In this document: positions 4,666-58,202 of the stretch, piece after piece
How the letters are laid out: each line of letters opens with the position of its first letter
Numbering within the stretch: the first letter of the stretch is position 1
Assembly (NCBI RefSeq): GCF_011045215.1
Contig: NZ_CP049201.1
Strand: one strand, 5' to 3'
From: Escherichia coli
GTDB taxonomy: Bacteria; Pseudomonadota; Gammaproteobacteria; Enterobacterales; Enterobacteriaceae
Length of the DNA: 64,000 nucleotides
Translations under genes and position numbers: made by a program
The notes under the pieces: generated by a model
What the model was told of the DNA's origin: nothing
The model's database searches: none
The model's input: only the letters and a program-made list of their open reading frames with translations

Positions 4666-5256
4666 ATGAAAGTAGCAAAAGACCTGGTGGTCAGCCTGGC
4701 CTATCAGGTACGTACAGAAGACGGTGTGTTGGTTGATGAGTCTCCGGTGAGTGCGCCGCTGGACTACCTGCATGGTCACGGTTCCCTGATCTCTGGCCTG
4801 GAAACGGCGCTGGAAGGTCATGAAGTTGGCGACAAATTTGATGTCGCTGTTGGCGCGAACGACGCTTACGGTCAGTACGACGAAAACCTGGTGCAACGTG
4901 TTCCTAAAGACGTATTTATGGGCGTTGATGAACTGCAGGTAGGTATGCGTTTCCTGGCTGAAACCGACCAGGGTCCGGTACCGGTTGAAATCACTGCGGT
5001 TGAAGACGATCACGTCGTGGTTGATGGTAACCACATGCTGGCCGGTCAGAACCTGAAATTCAACGTTGAAGTTGTGGCGATTCGCGAAGCGACCGAAGAA
5101 GAACTGGCTCATGGCCACGTTCACGGCGCGCACGATCATCACCACGATCACGACCACGACGGTTGCTGCGGCGGTCATGGCCACGATCACGGTCATGAAC
5201 ACGGTGGCGAAGGTTGCTGTGGCGGTAAAGGCAACGGCGGTTGCGGTTGCCACTAA
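4666..5256 (+). CDS. slyD: FKBP-type peptidyl-prolyl isomerase SlyD with His/Cys-rich metal-binding tail
   Basis: 196-aa ORF; C-terminus HGHVHGAHDHHHDHDHDGCCGGHGHDHGHEHGGEGCCGG. Confidence 0.95.
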   Translation: MKVAKDLVVSLAYQVRTEDGVLVDESPVSAPLDYLHGHGSLISGLETALEGHEVGDKFDVAVGANDAYGQYDENLVQRVPKDVFMGVDELQVGMRFLAETDQGPVPVEITAVEDDHVVVDGNHMLAGQNLKFNVEVVAIREATEEELAHGHVHGAHDHHHDHDHDGCCGGHGHDHGHEHGGEGCCGGKGNGGCGCH

Positions 5257-5270
5257 TACCGAAAAGGTGA

Positions 5271-5299
5271 CAAAAAAGCGGGGAATCCCCGCTTTTTTT
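5271..5299. terminator. bidirectional rho-independent terminator between convergent slyD and slyX
   Basis: aaaaaagcggggaatccccgcttttttt: GC stem flanked by A-run and T-run. Confidence 0.7.
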
Positions 5300-5304
5300 A
5301 CGCC

Positions 5305-5523
5305 TCAATAATGTGGCGGTGGCGTTTCTTCAGCCTGCGACGCGATGTTCGACGGCTGGCTGGCTTTTAACTTCTCGGTCAGCAGACGCAGATGATCGCG
5401 CAGTTTCGCCATCTCCATTTCATGAGCGGTCACCGTGACGTTCAGTTCTTCAATGGTGATTTCCTGAAAAGCCAGTCGGCTCTCCAGCTCTGCCAGGCGT
5501 GCTTCCAATGATAAATCCTGCAT
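5305..5523 (-). CDS. slyX: protein SlyX
   Basis: 72-aa coiled-coil-like ORF at the conserved position. Confidence 0.9.
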
Positions 5524-5603
5524 GATTCACCTCTTTTGTCGAATGGTTGCCGCGGATTCTACTTAACTTTGCTGCCCGAGACAGCACTCATTTCGCGGTC
5601 ATC

Positions 5604-5631
5604 GAAACTAATTTAAACAAAAAGAGTCTGA
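5604..5631 (+). promoter_or_regulatory. candidate sigma-E type promoter upstream of fkpA
   Basis: gaaact-N17-tctga resembles the sigma-E -35/-10 consensus; fkpA is a known sigma-E regulon member. Confidence 0.35.
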
Positions 5632-5743
5632 AAATAGATGATAATAGGGCGTGTCTGTATGTAGATTTGTTCGACAACGCTTTATAGTACCCTTCTGATA
5701 ATAGTTAACCCTGGGGTGAGATGCCCCGATCCTGGAGATATGG

Positions 5744-6556
5744 ATGAAATCACTGTTTAAAGTAACGCTGCTGGCGACCACAATGGCCGTTGCCCTGCAT
5801 GCACCAATCACTTTTGCTGCTGAAGCTGCAAAACCTGCTACAACTGCTGACAGCAAAGCAGCGTTCAAAAATGACGATCAGAAATCAGCTTATGCACTGG
5901 GTGCCTCGCTGGGTCGTTACATGGAAAACTCTCTAAAAGAACAAGAAAAACTGGGCATCAAACTGGATAAAGATCAGCTGATCGCTGGTGTTCAGGATGC
6001 ATTTGCTGATAAGAGCAAACTCTCCGACCAAGAGATCGAACAGACTCTGCAAGCATTCGAAGCTCGCGTGAAATCTTCTGCTCAGGCGAAGATGGAAAAA
6101 GACGCGGCTGATAACGAAGCAAAAGGTAAAGAGTACCGCGAGAAATTTGCCAAAGAGAAAGGTGTGAAAACCTCTTCAACTGGTCTGGTTTATCAGGTAG
6201 TAGAAGCCGGTAAAGGCGAAGCACCGAAAGACAGCGATACTGTTGTAGTGAACTACAAAGGTACGCTGATCGACGGTAAAGAGTTCGACAACTCTTACAC
6301 CCGTGGTGAACCGCTCTCTTTCCGTCTGGACGGTGTTATCCCGGGTTGGACAGAAGGTCTGAAGAACATCAAGAAAGGCGGTAAGATCAAACTGGTTATT
6401 CCACCAGAACTGGCTTACGGCAAAGCGGGTGTTCCGGGGATCCCACCGAATTCTACCCTGGTGTTTGACGTAGAGCTGCTGGATGTGAAACCAGCGCCGA
6501 AGGCTGATGCAAAGCCGGAAGCTGATGCGAAAGCCGCAGATTCTGCTAAAAAATAA
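5744..6556 (+). CDS. fkpA: periplasmic FKBP-type peptidyl-prolyl isomerase FkpA
   Basis: 270-aa ORF with signal peptide MKSLFKVTLLATTMAVALHA and FKBP domain. Confidence 0.95.
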   Translation: MKSLFKVTLLATTMAVALHAPITFAAEAAKPATTADSKAAFKNDDQKSAYALGASLGRYMENSLKEQEKLGIKLDKDQLIAGVQDAFADKSKLSDQEIEQTLQAFEARVKSSAQAKMEKDAADNEAKGKEYREKFAKEKGVKTSSTGLVYQVVEAGKGEAPKDSDTVVVNYKGTLIDGKEFDNSYTRGEPLSFRLDGVIPGWTEGLKNIKKGGKIKLVIPPELAYGKAGVPGIPPNSTLVFDVELLDVKPAPKADAKPEADAKAADSAKK

Positions 6557-44513: not shown

Positions 44514-44633
44514 TGTCTGGCGGCAGTAGCGCGGTGGTCCCACCTGACCCCATGCCGAACTCAGAAGTGAAACGCCGTAGCGCCGATGGTAGTGTGGGGC
44601 CTCCCCATGCGAGAGTAGGGAACTGCCAGACAT
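44514..44633 (+). rRNA. rrfF: 5S ribosomal RNA, copy 2
   Basis: tgtctggcggcagtagcgcgg...ctgccagacat, 120 nt; distal 5S after thrV identifies the rrnD-type architecture. Confidence 0.96.
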
Positions 44634-44645
44634 CAAATCAAGCGA

Positions 44646-44675
44646 AAGGCCATCCGAAAGGATGGCCTTTTTGCT
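44646..44675 (+). terminator. rrnD terminator
   Basis: aaaggccatcc-gaaa-ggatggccttttt. Confidence 0.85.
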
Positions 44676-44693
44676 TTTCGAACTAACATTCAA

Positions 44694-44910: not shown

Positions 44911-47412
<2,502 letters not shown>

Positions 47413-49781: not shown

Positions 49782-50807
49782 TTAACGCACGGGCGGCGCG
49801 TACTGAATACCGCCGTTATTCCAGAGATTATTTTGCCCACGTTTAATTTTCAGCGGGCTTTCTGAACCTACGTTACGCTCAAAAATTTCCGAGTAGTTAC
49901 CCACCTGTTTGATGATGTTATAGGCCCATTTATTATCCAACTTCAGATCCTTGCCGTAATCGCCTTCTTTACCCAGCAGATGTGCCATATCAGGCGTTGC
50001 TGGATTAGCCGCTTTTTCATCGACGTTCTGGGAATTGATGCCCATCTCTTCAGCATTTAGCATGGCGAAAAGCGTCCAGCGTACAATCGAGAACCATTCA
50101 TCATCGCCACGACGAACTACCGGCCCAAGCGGTTCTTTAGAGATAACCTCCGGTAAGACAATCCATTCAGCCGGGTTGCTTAATTTGATGCGCAGGGCAT
50201 ACAGTTGGGATTGATCCGAAGCCAGCGTATCGCAGCGACCAGATTCCAGTGCCTTCGCTGATTCGTCAGAGCGATCGAAAGTCACTGGTGTGTACTTCAT
50301 ATTGTTTGCCTTGAAATAGTCGGCGACGTTGAGTTCGGTATCAGTACCCGCCTGAATACAGACGGTAGCGCCATCCAGTTCTTTCGCGCTTTTTAGCCCC
50401 GCTTTATCGTGCGTCAGGAAGCCTATGCCGTCGTAATAAGTGACGCCAGTAAATGCCATTCCCATCCCGGCATCGCGAGATGAAGTCCAGGTCGTATTAC
50501 GGGAGAGCAAATCCACCTCCCCTGACTGTAAAGCGGTGAAGCGTTCTTTTGCAGTGAGCGGGGTATATTTCACTTTCGTGTCGTCACCAAATACAGCAGC
50601 GGCAACACCACGACAAATATCAACATCAATACCTGAAAATTTACCGTCAGCATCGGCATAAGAGAACCCAGGTAATCCATCACTGATCCCGCATTGCACA
50701 AAACCTTTTTTCTGTACGGCATCAAGCGTCGCGCCAGCATGCGCCTGATTTGCAACGGCAAGCAGCACGCTGGCGGCAGCCAGTGTGGCTATCATCATCT
50801 TTTTCAT
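49782..50807 (-). CDS. yhdW: amino-acid ABC transporter periplasmic binding protein YhdW
   Basis: 341-aa ORF with signal peptide MKKMMIATLAAASVLLAVANQAHA. Confidence 0.9.
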   Translation of the reverse strand: MKKMMIATLAAASVLLAVANQAHAGATLDAVQKKGFVQCGISDGLPGFSYADADGKFSGIDVDICRGVAAAVFGDDTKVKYTPLTAKERFTALQSGEVDLLSRNTTWTSSRDAGMGMAFTGVTYYDGIGFLTHDKAGLKSAKELDGATVCIQAGTDTELNVADYFKANNMKYTPVTFDRSDESAKALESGRCDTLASDQSQLYALRIKLSNPAEWIVLPEVISKEPLGPVVRRGDDEWFSIVRWTLFAMLNAEEMGINSQNVDEKAANPATPDMAHLLGKEGDYGKDLKLDNKWAYNIIKQVGNYSEIFERNVGSESPLKIKRGQNNLWNNGGIQYAPPVR

Positions 50808-51711: not shown

Positions 51712-54700
51712 TTATCCTTTAAAGCAACGGCGGATCACCACAAAGAACACCGGTACGAAGAAGATTGCCAGCAACGTTGCAGAGACCATTCCTCCCATTA
51801 CCCCGATACCCACAGCGTTCTGCGCGCCACTGCCGGCACCGTTACTGATAGCCAGCGGTAATACGCCGAGAATAAAGGCGAGAGAGGTCATCAGGATAGG
51901 ACGCAGACGCATACGTACTGCCATTAGTGTCGCTTCAACAACATCTTTACCCTCTTTCTCCATGAGATCTTTAGCGAACTCAACAATCAAAATAGCGTTT
52001 TTGGCCGACAAGCCAATTGTCGTTAGCAAGCCCACCATAAAGTAGACGTCATTTTTTTGATTAAAGAGTGTCGCCGCCAGCAGCACGCCGACAATCCCTA
52101 ACGGCACGACCAACATAACCGAGACAGGAATTGACCAGCTTTCATAGAGTGCAGCAAGGCACAGGAAAACAACCACAAAGGAAATTGCTACCAGAGCGGG
52201 AGCCTGGTTTCCCGATAAGCGTTCCTGATACGACATACCCGTCCAGTCATAACCAATGCCCGCAGGTAATTTTGACGCAAGGTTTTCCATCAACGCCATG
52301 GCATCGCCGGAACTGGTTCCTGGCGCGGCTTCCCCCTGAATCTCCATTGACGGCAGACCGTTGTAGCGTTCCAGTCGCGGAGAGCCATACACCCAATGTG
52401 AAGTGGTAAAGGCAGAGAATGGCACCATTTCGCCGTTGGCGCTGCGGACATAAAGTTTATCGACATCTTCTGGCAGCATACGGAATTTGGCATCCGCCTG
52501 AACATACACCTTTTTCACGCGACCACGGTCGATGAAGTCGTTAACGTAAGTCCCACCCAGCGCCGTTGAAATGGTCTGATTGATGTCAGAAAGTGAAACA
52601 CCTAATGCCTGCGCCTTTTCCTGGTCAACTTCCAGTTTAAACTGCGCGGTGTCTTCCAGGCCATTAGGACGCACGCTGACTAAGCTGGCAGGATGTTGCG
52701 CCGCCATACCAAGCAACTGGTTACGGGCCTGGGTTAGGGCATCGTGACCCAGCCCAGCCTGATCAATTAACTCAAAGTCGAAACCCGTTGCCGTGCCCAG
52801 TTCAACAATGGCTGGCATGTTGAATGGAATGACAAAACCGTCGCGGATCTTGCCCAATTCCATTTTGGCACGATGGATTACCGCTTCCGCACTGTTTTCG
52901 TCACCATTACGCTCTTCCCACGGTTTCAGACTGACGAAGGCCATACCGGCGTTTTGTGCCTGGCCGCTGAAGCTAAAGCCGTTAACCGTAAAGACACTTT
53001 CAACGTTCGCTTTCTCGTTCTTCAGATAGTAATCCGTCACTTGATCCAACACTTTTTGCGTCCGCTCTTGCGTCGCGCCAGCGGGTAACTGAATCATGGT
53101 CAGAAAGACACCCTGATCCTCTTCAGGTAAGAAGGAAGACGGAAGACGTAAAAACAACACCACCATTCCTGCAACAATCAGCGCATAGATCAGTAAATAT
53201 CGTCCTGTGGAACCGAGGATTTTGCCGACGCTGTTGGTGTAGTGGTTAACGCTATGATCGAAGGTGGTATTAAACCAGCCGAAGAAACCGCCCTTATTTT
53301 CGTGATGCTCAGCAGAGACGGGTTTAAGCAGCGTTGCACATAACGCAGGGGTAAGAATCAATGCCACCAGAACAGAAAGCGCCATTGCCGAAACGATGGT
53401 GATAGAGAACTGGCGATAAATTGCCCCAGTAGAACCGCCGAAGAATGCCATCGGAATAAATACCGCTGACAGCACCATCGCGATACCCACCAGTGCGCCC
53501 TGGATTTGCGACATTGATTTTTCCGTCGCTTCTTTTGGCGGGAGCTTATCCTCCATCATCACGCGCTCGACGTTCTCCACCACCACTATCGCATCATCGA
53601 CGAGCAGCCCGATGGCAAGCACCATCCCGAACATCGTTAGTGTGTTGATGGAGTAACCAAAAGCGGCGAGGATGGCAAACGTCCCTAACAACACCACGGG
53701 TACCGCAATGGTGGGGATCAGCGTTGCTCGCATATTCTGCAAGAACAGATACATCACCAGGAACACCAGCATAATAGCTTCGAACAGTGTTTTTACCACT
53801 TCGTGAATAGAAAGCTGGACGAATGGCGTGGTGTCATAAGGGTAGAGAACCTTCATTCCCTGCGGGAAGAATGGCTGTAATTCCGCCAGTTTTGCCTTAA
53901 TGGCTTTCGCGGTATCGAGAGCATTCGCGCCGGTTGCCAGCTTAATACCCAGGCCCGCCGCCGGTTTTCCGTTGATGCGAGCGATAACGTTATAGTTTTC
54001 ACCGCCAAGTTCAACCCGTGCGACATCTTTCAGGCGTACCACCGAGCCGTCACTGTTTACGCGCAGGGTCACTTTGCCGAATTCTTCCGGATTTTTTAAC
54101 CGCGTCTGAGCAATAATCGAGGCATTCAACTGTTGCCCTGGTAACGCTGGCGTTCCGCCCAACTGTCCGGCAGCGATCTGATCGTTCTGTACCTTCAACT
54201 GGTTAATCACATCAACCGGTGTCAGTTTATATTTGTTTAGCAGATCGGCGTCCAGCCAGATACGCATCGCATACTGTGCGCCGAAAAGCTGTACGTCACC
54301 GACGCCATTCAGACGGCTAAGCGTATCTTTAACGTTAGAGGCCACATAGTCCGAGATATCGTCCTGTGTGGTGTCTGGGTTATCAGAGACAAAGCCCGCC
54401 ACCATCAAATAGCTGCTACTGGACTTTTCAACACTGATCCCCTGCTGCTGAACCTCCTGCGGCAGCAACGGCGTGGCGAGCTGGAGTTTGTTCTGCACCT
54501 GCACTTGCGCGATATCAGGATCGGTCCCGGACTGGAAGGTAAGGGTAATTGTCACGCTACCGGCGGAATCGCTGGTGGAGGACATATACATCAGGTTATC
54601 GATACCGTTCATATTCTGTTCGATAACCTGCGTCACCGTATCCTGCACGGTCTGCGCATCAGCGCCCGGATAGTTTGCTGAAACAGAAACCGCTGGCGGT

Positions 54701-54816
54701 GCAATGGTTGGATACTGAGCGACGGGCAATTGTAGGATCGCCAGTGCGCCAGCCATCATCAGAATAATGGCCAGCACCCATGCAAATATCGGTCGTCGAA
54801 TAAAAAAGTTTGCCAT
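51712..54816 (-). CDS. acrF: RND multidrug efflux transporter AcrF
   Basis: 1034-aa [39 protein letters not shown]. Confidence 0.96.
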
Positions 54817-54827
54817 GTCAGATTACC

Positions 54828-55985
54828 TTACTTCGATGCAGTATCTGCGGGGGTATCGGTAGTGGCTTTAACCTGCTCTCCCGGACGCGCTTTTTGCAGG
54901 CCGCTGACAATGACTTGATCGCCAGATTTCAGACCTTCGCTAATCAACCATTTATCGCCAATCGCCTGACTGGCAACGACAGGGCGCGCTTCAACCTGAC
55001 TTTTATCGTTAACAATCAGCACGGTTGCATCACCACGCGGTGTGCGGCTAACGCCTTGTTGCGGGATAAGAATGGCGTCAGGTTGGACGCCTTCATCAAT
55101 CCGTGCACGCACAAACATACCCGGCAAAAGCGTATGTTGCGGGTTAGGGAAGACAGCACGTAGGGTTATGGAGCCGGTGCTTTCATCAACGGTCACATCG
55201 GAGAATTGCAGCGTACCTTTCAGGGGATAGGTTTGACCGTTTTCCATGACCAACTCTACGTTGCTGGTGGCGTTTTCCTTATGCAAATTTCCTTGCTCTA
55301 CGGATTGCTTCAGCCTCATAAAATCGTTGCTGGATTGGGTCACATCAACGTAGATAGGATCGAGCTGCTGGACAGTTGCCAGTTCAGTCGTTTGCCCATT
55401 AGTGACAAGAGCGCCTTCGGTCACAGTTGATTTGCCGATACGTCCGCTAATTGGCGCAGTCACTTTGGTATAAGCAAGATTGATGCGAGCGCTTTCGACT
55501 GTGGCTTTTGCGGCAATCACGGCGGCATCGGCCTGGCGAGCATCAGCAATGGCCTGGTCGTACTCCTGCTGGCTGATGTATTTCGTACCCACGAGCGGAA
55601 CGTAACGTTTTACCGTCAAATGCGCGATGGCGGCGGCGGCTTCACTTTTCGCCAGTTCGCCTTTCGCGCTGTCATAATTTGCCTGATAGGTCGCGGGATC
55701 GATCTGGTACAGGGACTGGCCTGCTTGCACATCGCTGCCTTCAGTGAAATTGCGATTCAGTACGATCCCGCTAACCTGTGGGCGAACTTCGGCTATACGA
55801 TAAGCATTGGTGCGGCCTGGTAATTCAGTCTTAACTTCTAACGGGGCCGTTTTTACAATATGAACGGTAACCTGCGGTTCACCGACGTGAGCTTTCTCTT
55901 CTCCCTTATCGTTACAATCGGCGATTAAAGCCGCGGAGATCAGAATAAAGGAGGGCAGGAGGAAAAACCTGGCATGTTTCGTCAT
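54828..55985 (-). CDS. acrE: periplasmic adaptor (membrane fusion) protein AcrE
   Basis: 385-aa ORF with lipobox, immediately upstream of acrF. Confidence 0.96.
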   Translation of the reverse strand: MTKHARFFLLPSFILISAALIADCNDKGEEKAHVGEPQVTVHIVKTAPLEVKTELPGRTNAYRIAEVRPQVSGIVLNRNFTEGSDVQAGQSLYQIDPATYQANYDSAKGELAKSEAAAAIAHLTVKRYVPLVGTKYISQQEYDQAIADARQADAAVIAAKATVESARINLAYTKVTAPISGRIGKSTVTEGALVTNGQTTELATVQQLDPIYVDVTQSSNDFMRLKQSVEQGNLHKENATSNVELVMENGQTYPLKGTLQFSDVTVDESTGSITLRAVFPNPQHTLLPGMFVRARIDEGVQPDAILIPQQGVSRTPRGDATVLIVNDKSQVEARPVVASQAIGDKWLISEGLKSGDQVIVSGLQKARPGEQVKATTDTPADTASK

Positions 55986-56383
55986 TACTATTCCTCAAAA
56001 AACCAAAAGCGCGTTATTTACCCAAAAAGGCAACGCGTTAACTCGCAGAAAGAAAAATACAGTTCGCTATCCTACAAATTATCATTCGTCGATGTAAGGA
56101 ATAGTTATGAATACAGGCGTCTCAAGGCACATAAACACAAAAAAAGATTAATATTCTACTGTTTTATTTTGACGCGGGTTGAAAGAGGCAGAATTAAAAC
56201 CTCGTAAATTGAAATATATATTGATGTAGTGAATGTATCTTAGGTAAATAATATATATTATTTATTTAACGATTTATAGCAACTCAATATTAGCCTCTCG
56301 TATAAATACACATTAGGTGATAGATTAACCTTCGCTATTTTCTCACTCTGTGTCGAATATATTTATTTCCTGAATAATTAATC

Positions 56384-57046
56384 ATGGCAAAAAGAACCAA
56401 AGCCGAAGCTCTGAAGACCCGGCAAGAACTGATTGAAACTGCCATCGCCCAGTTTGCGCAGCATGGCGTAAGCAAGACGACGCTCAACGACATTGCCGAC
56501 GCCGCTAACGTTACGCGTGGCGCTATCTACTGGCACTTCGAAAACAAGACTCAACTGTTTAATGAGATGTGGTTGCAACAGCCTTCATTGCGGGAGTTAA
56601 TCCAGGATCACTTGACGGCTGGGTTAGAGCATGACCCGTTTCAACAATTGCGTGAAAAATTGATTGTCGGCTTGCAATATATTGCCAAAATTCCCCGCCA
56701 GCAGGCGTTGCTGAAAATCTTATATCACAAATGTGAATTTAATGATGAGATGCTGGCCGAGGGAGTGATACGCGAAAAGATGGGCTTTAATCCGCAGACT
56801 CTCCGTGAAGTATTGCAGGCGTGTCAGCAAAAAGGTTGTGTAGCAAATAACCTCGATTTAGATGTTGTGATAATTATTATTGATGGTGCCTTCAGCGGAA
56901 TTGTTCAAAACTGGTTAATGAATATGGCGGGTTATGATCTTTATAAACAAGCCCCCGCTCTTGTCGATAACGTATTAAGAATGTTCATGCCAGATGAAAA
57001 CATAACGAAATTAATTCATCAAACGAATGAATTAAGTGTCATGTAA
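56384..57046 (+). CDS. acrS: TetR-family repressor AcrS (EnvR)
   Basis: 220-aa ORF with N-terminal TetR HTH, divergent from acrEF. Confidence 0.93.
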   Translation: MAKRTKAEALKTRQELIETAIAQFAQHGVSKTTLNDIADAANVTRGAIYWHFENKTQLFNEMWLQQPSLRELIQDHLTAGLEHDPFQQLREKLIVGLQYIAKIPRQQALLKILYHKCEFNDEMLAEGVIREKMGFNPQTLREVLQACQQKGCVANNLDLDVVIIIIDGAFSGIVQNWLMNMAGYDLYKQAPALVDNVLRMFMPDENITKLIHQTNELSVM

Positions 57047-57054
57047 ATTCACAT

Positions 57055-57255
57055 TCAGTCCTGAAAATTCAGTTCGTCACAGTTAACCAGTTTTAGTGGA
57101 TTAACTGAGTTCATATTGCGGCATTTGTCTGTTTCTGTTGCCAGCAGTTCAATCCACTGCATCAGTAAAGTATCAAACAGAAAAACGAAGACAGCGAAAA
57201 CGACGAGCCACCAATACTTGCGAATCATTACCTGAGCCTGTGCATGTTTAACCAA
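57055..57255 (-). CDS. yhdU: small membrane protein YhdU
   Basis: ORF with a single TM segment (YWWLVVFAVFVFLF); true start may be the internal Met (MIRKYWW). Confidence 0.6.
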   Translation of the reverse strand: MVKHAQAQVMIRKYWWLVVFAVFVFLFDTLLMQWIELLATETDKCRNMNSVNPLKLVNCDELNFQD

Positions 57256-57311
57256 GTCTGGCAGGAAATATACACGAAATGAATAATCTGAAAACCAGGC
57301 TTACACATCCT

Positions 57312-58202
57312 TTACTTTGTAATGAGATCGGGGTCAACTTCGCTTAACCGGCTTCGTTTTGACAGGTTGCCGGTCTTTCTTTTTTTCACTTTCGCCAGTT
57401 CTTCCGCAGAGTAATGCGACGCGACATCCAGCCGTCGAAGCCCCATTTTGATGTACTCGCTGTTGATCTCAATACCAATGAATTTTCGTCCGCTGGCGAT
57501 GGCTACGGCACCGGTAGTAAAGCTACCAGCAAACGGGTCGAGAACGATATCGCCTGGGTTGGAAGAGGCGAGAATAATGCGTTTCAGTAAGGCTTCCGGT
57601 TTTTGCGTCGGGTGGTTTTCATATTCATCCATCAAATAACGCACGCGAGGAAAATCCCAGACGTTACCCGGTACTTTTTGATGATTGTAAGGCTGTGGAG
57701 GATTTTTGCGATAATCGATCAACGCGCGCTGCGATCCGGTTTTGGCTTCTACCAGAATAGCATCACCGTTGAATGTGTAGTTCTTTGCGTCTTTCACCAT
57801 CATCAGGATGGGTTCGTACATGGAGCCGTAGTGTTTTTTCGCCTGCACTCCAGAACTGTCATAGGACCAGACGATCCGACTTTTGATGGTAAAAAGCTTG
57901 CGGCACTGGAGATCGATAAAGGGCATGTTTTCCGTACTGTTCATGATGTACATGCTGCCCTGCTTTTTCAGAACGCGGTGGCACTCTGCAATCACTTCAA
58001 ACAGCCAGTCGATAAACAGATCTTCTTTCCAGGCTTCGATCAGACCATCAAAATTTTTACCGATGTTATACGGTGGGTCGGCAAAGATCAGATCGACGCT
58101 TTCAGTAGGTAGCTTTTTAAGTTCGGCAAGGGCATCACCGTGAATAATGGTCTTAGCTTCATTACCAAACCGGGTCGGTTCACATCCTGTTCTCATGGTC
58201 AC
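57312..58202 (-). CDS. yhdJ: orphan N6-adenine DNA methyltransferase YhdJ
   Basis: ORF with the DPPY motif (FADPPYNIG) and SAM-binding region; start may be 2 codons downstream. Confidence 0.92.
   Translation of the reverse strand: MTMRTGCEPTRFGNEAKTIIHGDALAELKKLPTESVDLIFADPPYNIGKNFDGLIEAWKEDLFIDWLFEVIAECHRVLKKQGSMYIMNSTENMPFIDLQCRKLFTIKSRIVWSYDSSGVQAKKHYGSMYEPILMMVKDAKNYTFNGDAILVEAKTGSQRALIDYRKNPPQPYNHQKVPGNVWDFPRVRYLMDEYENHPTQKPEALLKRIILASSNPGDIVLDPFAGSFTTGAVAIASGRKFIGIEINSEYIKMGLRRLDVASHYSAEELAKVKKRKTGNLSKRSRLSEVDPDLITK

What the first reader, a model, noticed from the sequence alone, without database searches (positions are those of the whole stretch)
55986..56383. acrS-acrE divergent promoter region is intact and very AT-rich
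The 398-bp spacer is extremely AT-rich (for example 56210-56290), consistent with the H-NS-silenced acrEF promoter. In laboratory strains acrEF is often activated by IS insertion here; this strain carries an active-looking IS nearby in yhdZ but none at this site.
Basis: partly seen in the sequence, partly recalled or inferred. Interest (0 to 1): 0.2.

Follow-up and report, generated by a model that had tools for sequence, protein, structure and literature searches.

The report
Intact AT-rich acrS–acrEF control region
This is the normal, uninterrupted control DNA between the E. coli efflux-pump operon acrEF and its neighbouring regulator gene acrS: it is very AT-rich, as published H-NS silencing of acrEF would lead one to expect, differs from K-12 by one base, and is ordinary.

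Summary
Window 55986-56383 is exactly the 398-bp spacer between divergent acrE (54828-55985, -) and acrS/envR (56384-57046, +). At 30.9% GC it is the most AT-rich 398-bp stretch of the 64-kb window (window mean 50.5%). The core 56210-56290 is 18.5% GC.

The spacer has the K-12 length and differs from K-12 by one base (56119 G, not A). It holds no IS or rearrangement. This is the usual state: 5214 of 5230 complete E. coli genomes with a match carry it contiguously. The nearby IS is real. It is a complete 1954-bp IS100 in yhdZ (44911-46864), 9.1 kb away, and none of 5426 genomes shares that junction.

The interpretation rests on published work, not on anything tested here. That work covers H-NS repression of acrEF, an H-NS mark on the envR/acrE spacer, and IS1/IS2/IS5 insertions 86-187 bp upstream of acrE in acrB mutants.

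New detail from 15 spacers in four genera:
- Length (376-413 bp) and an AT-rich core are conserved, but the core sequence is not.
- The acrE-proximal blocks are nearly invariant and form a weak promoter-like pair, CTTACA-18-TAGGAT.
- A 10-nt match to half of the AcrR/EnvR operator sits in the core.

Verdict: already known, low interest.

The parts
51712..54816 (-). acrF, RND permease (1034 aa), second gene of the acrEF operon
   Evidence: ORF list. NCBIfam RND permease subfamily TIGR00915 at 1866.7 bits, above its 940.35 cut-off. Annotated acrF in matching RefSeq genomes.
54828..55985 (-). acrE, periplasmic adaptor lipoprotein (385 aa), ATG at 55985-55983
   Evidence: 99.7% amino-acid identity to K-12 AcrE.
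55986..56383 (.). acrE/acrS divergent intergenic region, 398 bp, 30.9% GC, no insertion
   Evidence: Contiguous in 5214 of 5230 E. coli genomes with a match.
56384..57046 (+). acrS (envR), TetR-family repressor (220 aa)
   Evidence: NCBIfam NF007430 equivalog at 432.9 bits, cut-off 274. 98.6% identity to K-12.
56186..56290 (.). Extreme AT-rich core (about 18-23% GC). Inferred to be the H-NS nucleation or spreading platform.
   Evidence: An 81-bp core of 13.6-23.5% GC is present in all 15 spacers from four genera, 152-327 bp (mostly about 200-310 bp) upstream of the acrE ATG. The sequence is poorly conserved. 23 of 42 positions variable within E. coli fall here.
56069..56074 (-). Candidate -10 hexamer TAGGAT of the native acrEF promoter (inferred)
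   Evidence: Lies in block 56064-56081, mean column conservation 0.94 across four genera, and is invariant in the E. coli sample. The published G>A at -86 in evolved acrB mutants (PMC9783932) falls on 56071 and would give TAGAAT. The IS2 target GTAGG is 56075-56071.
56093..56098 (-). Candidate -35 hexamer CTTACA, 18 bp upstream of TAGGAT (inferred)
   Evidence: Lies in block 56092-56106, mean column conservation 0.93, and is invariant within E. coli.
56071..56172 (.). Zone where published acrEF-activating IS1/IS2/IS5 insertions map (-86 to -187 from the acrE ATG). Uninterrupted here.
   Evidence: Positions from PMC9783932, converted to window coordinates and base-checked.
56119..56119 (.). Only difference from K-12 (G here, A in K-12), 134 bp upstream of acrE, in a variable stretch
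   Evidence: G is also found in PapM-32-1 and other Escherichia lineages. ATCC 25922 shares the A.
56194..56222 (+). Promoter-like site TTAAAA-17-TATATT directed towards acrS
   Evidence: Consensus scan. The same hexamers are listed for envR in the RpoD SELEX paper PMC3946193. The -10-like TAyATT is largely conserved across genera; the -35 is not.
56215..56239 (.). Imperfect palindrome TATATATTGA-TGTAG-TGAATGTATC. It contains GTGAATGTAT (56229-56238), identical to 10 nt of the acrAB AcrR/EnvR operator. Candidate EnvR/AcrR site (lead only).
   Evidence: Operator TACATACATTCACAAATGTATGTA read in the MG1655 acrA/acrR spacer. The 10-mer match was reached in 23 of 2000 dinucleotide shuffles. Arms pair 7/10 here, 10/10 in E. 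albertii, and 4-8/10 in the other thirteen spacers.
44911..46864 (-). IS100 (IS21 family) inserted in yhdZ, 9.1 kb from the spacer. Not part of the acrEF control region.
   Evidence: The junction is found in none of 5426 genomes.

Best explanation
The region is the ordinary wild-type regulatory spacer between the divergent genes acrS (envR) and acrEF of Escherichia coli, essentially in its K-12 state.

Shown here:
- It is flanked by intact acrE, acrF and acrS.
- It is 398 bp long, differs from K-12 by one base, and contains no mobile element.
- It is the most AT-rich stretch of the window.

Inferred from published work on the same DNA: the AT-rich core (about 56186-56290) is coated by H-NS, which keeps both divergent promoters nearly silent, so acrEF is a cryptic back-up of AcrAB. 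In acrB-deficient strains under selection it is switched on by IS1, IS2, IS5 or IS10 landing 86-187 bp upstream of acrE. These elements bring or create a promoter and separate acrE from the silencing DNA.

My own inference from comparative data:
- The native acrEF core promoter may be the weak, deeply conserved pair CTTACA-18-TAGGAT (56098-56069, minus strand), giving a leader of about 77 nt.
- The AT-rich core is constrained in composition and not in sequence.
- A half-operator-like site at 56229-56238 may be where EnvR or AcrR acts locally.

The expected phenotype of this strain is low basal acrEF expression.
For: - Gene identities and coordinates.
- One SNP against K-12 and no gaps.
- Composition statistics.
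- Contiguous copy in 5214 of 5230 and 5217 of 5241 E. coli genomes with a match.
- Literature: H-NS represses acrEF (PMC4462101; PMC6599122); H-NS mark on the envR/acrE spacer plus predicted divergent promoters (PMC3946193); IS positions and SNPs upstream of acrE (PMC9783932); EnvR represses acrAB and envR is H-NS-silenced in Salmonella (PMC9780535).
- Comparative: spacer length 376-413 bp and GC 30-35% in 15 Escherichia, Citrobacter, Salmonella and Pseudocitrobacter loci. Conserved blocks at 56064-56081 and 56092-56106. Mean column conservation is 0.80 for the acrE-proximal half and 0.59 for the acrS-proximal half. An AT core is present in every species.
- The published -86 G and -92 T match the bases at 56071 and 56077.
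- No Rfam family in the spacer. No ORF conserved beyond close E. coli relatives.
Against: - Nothing contradicts the identification.
- The mechanistic layer is not tested here: no H-NS binding, transcript or start-site data exist for this strain.
- The promoter scan finds no more promoter-like sites than shuffles give (2 against 2.0 +/- 1.4), and it did not report CTTACA-18-TAGGAT, which scores 8 of 12 and falls below its threshold.
- PMC3946193 proposes a different acrEF promoter (TTGAGT-19-AATAAT, about 270 bp upstream). That is also only a prediction, and it lies in non-conserved sequence.
- The SNPs at -86 and -92 co-occurred with an IS5 at -94, so they may tune a hybrid promoter and need not reveal the native one.
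- A match to the H-NS high-affinity motif (recalled from memory) is not enriched: 1 hit with 2 mismatches against 0.49 expected.
Confidence: 0.9

Rival explanations
1. The AT-richness is not functional. The spacer is weakly constrained intergenic DNA that has drifted towards the AT-biased mutational equilibrium of enterobacteria, and H-NS binding is a passive consequence of that drift.
For: The AT-rich core is the least conserved part of the spacer, both across genera (column conservation 0.59 against 0.80) and within E. coli (23 of 42 variable positions in 100 bp). No specific H-NS motif is enriched.
Against: - Spacer length (376-413 bp) and an 81-bp core of 14-24% GC are retained at a similar distance from acrE in all 15 loci of four genera, despite sequence turnover.
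- The other nine intergenic regions nearby are 34.5-50% GC.
- Published genetics show that H-NS loss derepresses acrEF.
Confidence: 0.15
2. This strain carries a functionally altered, possibly activated, acrEF control region because of the G at 56119 or the nearby IS100.
For: One base differs from K-12, 134 bp upstream of acrE and within the zone where activating insertions occur. An intact, strain-private IS100 lies 9.1 kb away.
Against: - The G is shared by PapM-32-1 and other Escherichia lineages and lies in a variable stretch outside the conserved blocks, so the K-12 A looks like the derived state.
- IS100 lies beyond acrF, yhdV, yhdW, yhdX and yhdY, downstream of the operon, and cannot supply a promoter to acrE.
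- IS100 is not among the elements reported to activate acrEF in the papers read.
Confidence: 0.04
3. The spacer hides an unannotated gene, either a small protein or a small or structured RNA.
For: A 77-aa ORF runs through 55974-56207 (+). A short hairpin in the acrE leader is predicted in all species, and one of its pairs shows compensatory changes.
Against: - The ORF has no Pfam match. It occurs only in the window and K-12, is shortened to 67 aa in one clade, and is absent from the other Escherichia lineages and other genera.
- No Rfam hit lies in the spacer even at E<=1.
- The leader folds no better than shuffles (z = -0.8).
- The consensus structure is only 3 pairs at -2.1 kcal/mol.
Confidence: 0.03

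Closest known systems
acrS(envR)-acrEF intergenic region of E. coli K-12 MG1655 (b3264/b3265, NC_000913.3 3413466-3413863)
   Same: Same flanking genes and orientation, same 398-bp length, 397 of 398 identical bases.
   Different: One substitution (56119 G versus A). AcrS differs from K-12 at 3 of 220 residues and AcrE at 1 of 385.
IS-activated acrEF alleles (IS1, IS2, IS5 in E. coli acrB mutants; IS1, IS10 in Salmonella DT204 acrB mutants)
   Same: Same locus. The published insertion points (-86 to -187) map to 56071-56172 of this window.
   Different: No insertion here. The window carries the uninterrupted, presumably silent state.
Other H-NS-silenced cryptic operons activated by IS insertion (for example bgl; the fucAO/IS5 case in PMC11894529)
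   Same: An AT-rich silencing region upstream of a cryptic operon, with activation by IS insertion upstream (general knowledge; the title and abstract of PMC11894529 were seen).
   Different: Here the silenced region is a divergent promoter shared with a TetR-family regulator that mainly represses a different operon, acrAB.
acrR-acrAB divergent region with the 24-bp AcrR/EnvR operator TACATACATTCACAAATGTATGTA
   Same: Paralogous architecture: a TetR repressor gene divergent from an RND adaptor-pump operon. 10 nt of the operator (GTGAATGTAT) recur at 56229-56238.
   Different: The acrA/acrR spacer is 141 bp against 398 bp here. Only one half-site is matched, and the local palindrome has 7 of 10 pairing arms with different spacing. 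Binding has not been shown.

Membership tests
E. coli acrS(envR)/acrEF divergent intergenic region | Bounded by the start codons of acrE and acrS, which are transcribed divergently | tested here: met
   ATG of acrE at 55985-55983 (-) and ATG of acrS at 56384 (+). Protein families; RefSeq annotation of matching genomes.
E. coli acrS(envR)/acrEF divergent intergenic region | Collinear, near-identical sequence to the K-12 reference spacer over its whole length | tested here: met
   398 of 398 columns aligned without gaps, 1 mismatch. 93.7-100% identity to 5214 genomes.
H-NS-silenced promoter region | Markedly AT-rich DNA with many TpA steps relative to the genome | tested here: met
   30.9% GC against 50.5%; core 18.5%; 12.6 TpA per 100 bp against 4.6.
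H-NS-silenced promoter region | H-NS occupancy of the DNA | not testable with these tools
   Only literature for K-12, whose spacer differs by 1 bp: the envR/acrE spacer is marked 'HNS' in PMC3946193.
H-NS-silenced promoter region | Derepression of the adjacent genes when hns is deleted | not testable with these tools
   Reported for acrEF by Nishino & Yamaguchi 2004, as cited in PMC6599122 and PMC4462101. The primary paper is not held.
IS-activated acrEF allele | An insertion sequence within about 200 bp upstream of acrE | tested here: not met
   No extra DNA relative to K-12. The nearest IS is IS100 at 44911-46864.
TetR-family (AcrR/EnvR) operator | Two inverted half-sites forming a palindrome of about 24 bp like the acrAB operator | tested here: inconclusive
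   One half-site matches 10 of 10 (p about 0.012 by shuffling). The partner arm pairs 7 of 10 here, 10 of 10 in E. albertii, and 4-8 of 10 elsewhere.
TetR-family (AcrR/EnvR) operator | Binding by EnvR or AcrR protein | not testable with these tools
   The papers read show EnvR binding only for the acrAB promoter.
Sigma-70 promoter (candidate acrEp CTTACA-18-TAGGAT) | -35 and -10 hexamers at 16-18 bp spacing, with A at position 2 and T at position 6 of the -10 | tested here: met
   4 of 6 plus 4 of 6 matches with an 18-bp spacer; TAGGAT has A2 and T6. This is below the 9-of-12 threshold of the scan, so it is weak.
Sigma-70 promoter (candidate acrEp CTTACA-18-TAGGAT) | A mapped transcription start site downstream | not testable with these tools
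   No start-site data were found in the held literature.

The most novel reading that the evidence does not exclude
The spacer has two layers.

The first is a deeply conserved, intrinsically weak acrEF core promoter (CTTACA-18-TAGGAT, 56098-56069). This is the element that IS2 insertions split and that the adaptive G>A at -86 improves.

The second is an upstream AT-rich core whose composition and position, but not sequence, have been kept across Escherichia, Citrobacter, Salmonella and Pseudocitrobacter. This core contains a half-operator shared with acrAB, through which EnvR or AcrR could act locally.

As far as the held literature shows, neither the native promoter nor a local EnvR site has been mapped.
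Probability: 0.35. Interest if true: 0.25.

Novelty: already known. Interest (0 to 1): 0.1.

Why it matters
The result mainly helps with annotation. It says that this strain's acrEF back-up efflux operon is in the usual silent, unrearranged configuration, so no acrEF-based efflux phenotype is expected from this locus. The strain keeps the documented one-step route to resistance, which is IS insertion 86-187 bp upstream of acrE if AcrAB is lost or inhibited. The comparative footprint offers specific and cheap targets for anyone mapping the native acrEF promoter or a local EnvR site: the two conserved blocks, the composition-only AT core and the operator-like half-site. None of this changes what is known about the system.

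Tried and rejected
- Rfam search at E<=1 over 55500-57400: nothing in the spacer. There was one sub-threshold hit inside the acrE coding sequence.
- Small-ORF hypothesis: the 77-aa ORF at 55974-56207 has no Pfam match and is not conserved beyond the closest relatives.
- Structured acrE leader: z = -0.8 and a 3-pair consensus, so rejected.
- H-NS high-affinity motif TCGATAAATT (recalled from memory): 1 hit with 2 mismatches against 0.49 expected, which is not informative.
- Generic promoter and terminator scan: no enrichment over shuffles.
- Reading T>G at -92 as creating an extended -10 (TGn) for TAGGAT: the register does not fit, so dropped.
- A conserved full palindrome around 56215-56239: perfect only in E. 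albertii and weak in Citrobacter and Salmonella, so kept only as a lead.
- Primary papers (Kobayashi 2001, Jellen-Ritter 2001, Nishino 2004 and 2009, Hirakawa 2008, Olliver 2005) are not held. Their content is cited only through papers that describe them.
- I could not list every one of the roughly 16-24 genomes with a broken spacer. Only two examples were inspected.

Full report
**What is at the coordinates**

The window carries three relevant ORFs:
- a 385-aa ORF on the minus strand at 54828-55985;
- a 1034-aa ORF on the minus strand at 51712-54816;
- a 220-aa ORF on the plus strand at 56384-57046.

The 220-aa protein passes the NCBIfam equivalog for the acrEF/envCD operon regulator, at 432.9 bits against a cut-off of 274. 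The other two are an AcrA-like adaptor and an AcrB-like RND permease. In matching RefSeq genomes, including K-12 MG1655, the same genes are annotated acrE, acrF and acrS/envR. The finding's interval 55986-56383 is exactly the 398-bp spacer between the two divergent start codons.

**Is it unusually AT-rich?**

Yes.
- The spacer is 30.9% GC in a window of 50.5%.
- It is the lowest 398-bp stretch in all 64 kb. Only 0.02% of such windows are as low, and all of them overlap it.
- The lowest 81-bp window of the whole sequence (17.3%) starts at 56212.
- Among the ten intergenic regions of the neighbourhood it is the most AT-rich; the others are 34.5-50% GC.
- It has 12.6 TpA steps per 100 bp, against 4.6 for the window.

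**Is it intact?**

Yes.
- It aligns to the K-12 spacer over 398 columns without a gap.
- There is a single substitution: 56119 is G here and A in K-12, 134 bp upstream of acrE.
- It is identical to the spacer of strain PapM-32-1.

Intactness is the rule in nature. 5214 of 5230 complete E. coli genomes with a match hold the spacer as one contiguous piece. With 100-bp flanks added, the figure is 5217 of 5241.

I looked at two exceptions. Both are IS1-mediated deletions and neither is a simple insertion. Strain 035152 lost acrEF, and IS1 ends 61 bp from acrS. Strain GN25 lost acrS, the spacer and the first codons of acrE.

Relative to K-12, the window has 1954 extra bases inside yhdZ, at 44911-46864. 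The element has:
- TG...CA termini and a 6-bp direct repeat, ACCATC;
- an intact 340-aa transposase (rve domain) and a 260-aa IstB helper;
- 99.8% identity to elements annotated IS100/IS100kyp.

None of 5426 genomes shares the yhdZ junction, so the insertion is private and probably recent. It lies 9.1 kb from the spacer, on the far side of acrF, yhdV, yhdW, yhdX and yhdY. It cannot drive acrE.

**What the literature says about this DNA**

acrEF is barely expressed in wild-type K-12, and hns deletion raises its expression (PMC4462101; PMC6599122; both cite Nishino & Yamaguchi 2004).

The RpoD genomic-SELEX catalogue lists the envR/acrE spacer with an 'HNS' mark. It predicts TTAAAA-17-TATATT for envR and TTGAGT-19-AATAAT for acrEF (PMC3946193). 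The first of these is the site the consensus scan found at 56194-56222.

[quoted passage not shown] Point changes T>G at -92 and G>A at -86 were also found. Earlier work reported IS1 and IS2 at -90 and -187 (PMC9783932).

Converted to window coordinates, these sites are 56071-56172. The reported bases (G at -86, T at -92) match the sequence, and that stretch is uninterrupted here.

EnvR/AcrS is described as mainly a repressor of acrAB. It binds the same 24-bp palindrome as AcrR and is itself H-NS-silenced in Salmonella (PMC9780535; PMC6790063).

None of it can be measured from sequence.

**Comparative anatomy (new here, modest)**

A scan of one genome per species with AcrS found orthologous loci in Escherichia clades, E. 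albertii, E. whittamii, Citrobacter, Salmonella enterica subsp. arizonae and diarizonae, and Pseudocitrobacter.
- In 15 loci the spacer is 376-413 bp and 30-35% GC, next to coding DNA of 48-53% GC.
- AcrE is 83-87% identical across genera, while AcrS is only 63-71%.
- The alignment shows that the acrE-proximal half is well conserved (mean column conservation 0.80) and the acrS-proximal half is not (0.59).
- Every species nevertheless keeps an 81-bp core of 14-24% GC, 152-327 bp (mostly about 200-310 bp) upstream of acrE.
- Within E. coli, 23 of 42 variable positions fall in 56186-56285.

Composition and position are kept while sequence turns over. This is what a binding platform for a protein that reads AT-richness and not a specific motif would look like. 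Neutral AT-biased drift remains a possible rival.

**Conserved blocks near acrE**

Two nearly invariant blocks are TCGCTATCCTACAAATTA (56064-56081) and ATGTAAGGAATAGTT (56092-56106). On the acrE strand they read CTTACA, then 18 bp, then TAGGAT. This is a weak sigma-70-like pair.
- Both hexamers are invariant in the E. coli sample.
- The IS2 target GTAGG lies inside the -10-like hexamer.
- The evolved G>A at -86 would turn TAGGAT into TAGAAT.

I infer that this is the native acrEF core promoter, with a leader of about 77 nt. Three cautions apply:
- it scores below the threshold of the scan;
- the SNPs co-occurred with an IS5 at -94, so they may tune a hybrid promoter;
- no start-site data were found.

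The leader shows no convincing RNA structure.

**Operator-like site**

The acrAB operator TACATACATTCACAAATGTATGTA was read in the MG1655 acrA/acrR spacer. Ten of its bases, GTGAATGTAT, occur at 56229-56238. A match that long arose in 23 of 2000 dinucleotide shuffles.

It forms the right arm of an imperfect palindrome at 56215-56239. The arms pair 7 of 10 here and 10 of 10 in E. albertii, but only 4-8 of 10 in the other thirteen spacers. It overlaps the predicted acrS promoter. This is a lead for a local EnvR/AcrR site and not a finding.

**Other possibilities checked**
- No Rfam family matches the spacer.
- The 77-aa ORF at 55974-56207 has no Pfam hit and disappears outside the closest relatives.
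- The G at 56119 is shared with other Escherichia lineages and lies in variable sequence, so it is unlikely to matter.

**Verdict**

It is already known and of low interest.

Noticed in passing
window 44911-46864: Complete IS100 (IS21 family; 1954 bp, 6-bp direct repeat ACCATC, intact istA and istB) interrupts yhdZ. The junction is absent from all 5426 complete E. coli genomes searched, so the insertion is private to this strain and probably recent.
   Followed up: yes
L003 (NZ_CP101705.1, strain 035152) 5288-6061; L086 (NZ_CP139196.1, strain GN25) 5041-5926: Two natural isolates carry IS1-mediated deletions at this locus. One removed acrEF, yhdV and part of yhdW, leaving IS1 61 bp from acrS. 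The other removed acrS, the whole spacer and the first ~15 codons of acrE, leaving IS1 directly next to a truncated acrE.
   Followed up: partly
window 55699-55886 (-): Sub-threshold Rfam hit to Burkholderia sRNA family Bcj14 (39.8 bits, gathering score 59, E = 4.6e-5) inside the 5' part of the acrE coding sequence. It probably reflects coding-sequence similarity of RND adaptor genes and not an RNA gene.
   Followed up: no
window 49782-50807 (-): The yhdW homologue (amino-acid ABC transporter substrate-binding protein, 341 aa) is intact here, as in PapM-32-1. In the K-12 derivative it is annotated as a frameshifted pseudogene.
   Followed up: no
window 44621-44678 versus L001 2486-2597: The rrfF-yhdZ intergenic region differs in length from K-12. 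The BLAST segments overlap by 58 bp in the window and skip about 110 bp of K-12. PapM-32-1 also has the short form.
   Followed up: no
L004-L019 (acrS orthologue loci): Across genera AcrS evolves much faster than the pump adaptor it sits beside (63-71% against 83-87% amino-acid identity to the window proteins). The AcrS scan returned clear orthologues (62% identity or more) only from Escherichia, Salmonella, Citrobacter and Pseudocitrobacter; the next hits drop to 39% or less.
   Followed up: partly
window 56009-56035 (acrE leader, minus strand): Conserved leader segment GGTAAATAACG(A/C)GCTTT, preceded by a short inverted repeat (TTACCG...CGGTAA in Citrobacter and Salmonella; TTGCC...GGGTAA in E. 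coli), 25-50 nt upstream of the acrE ATG. It is conserved across four genera, is not a stable RNA structure, and its function is unknown.
   Followed up: partly
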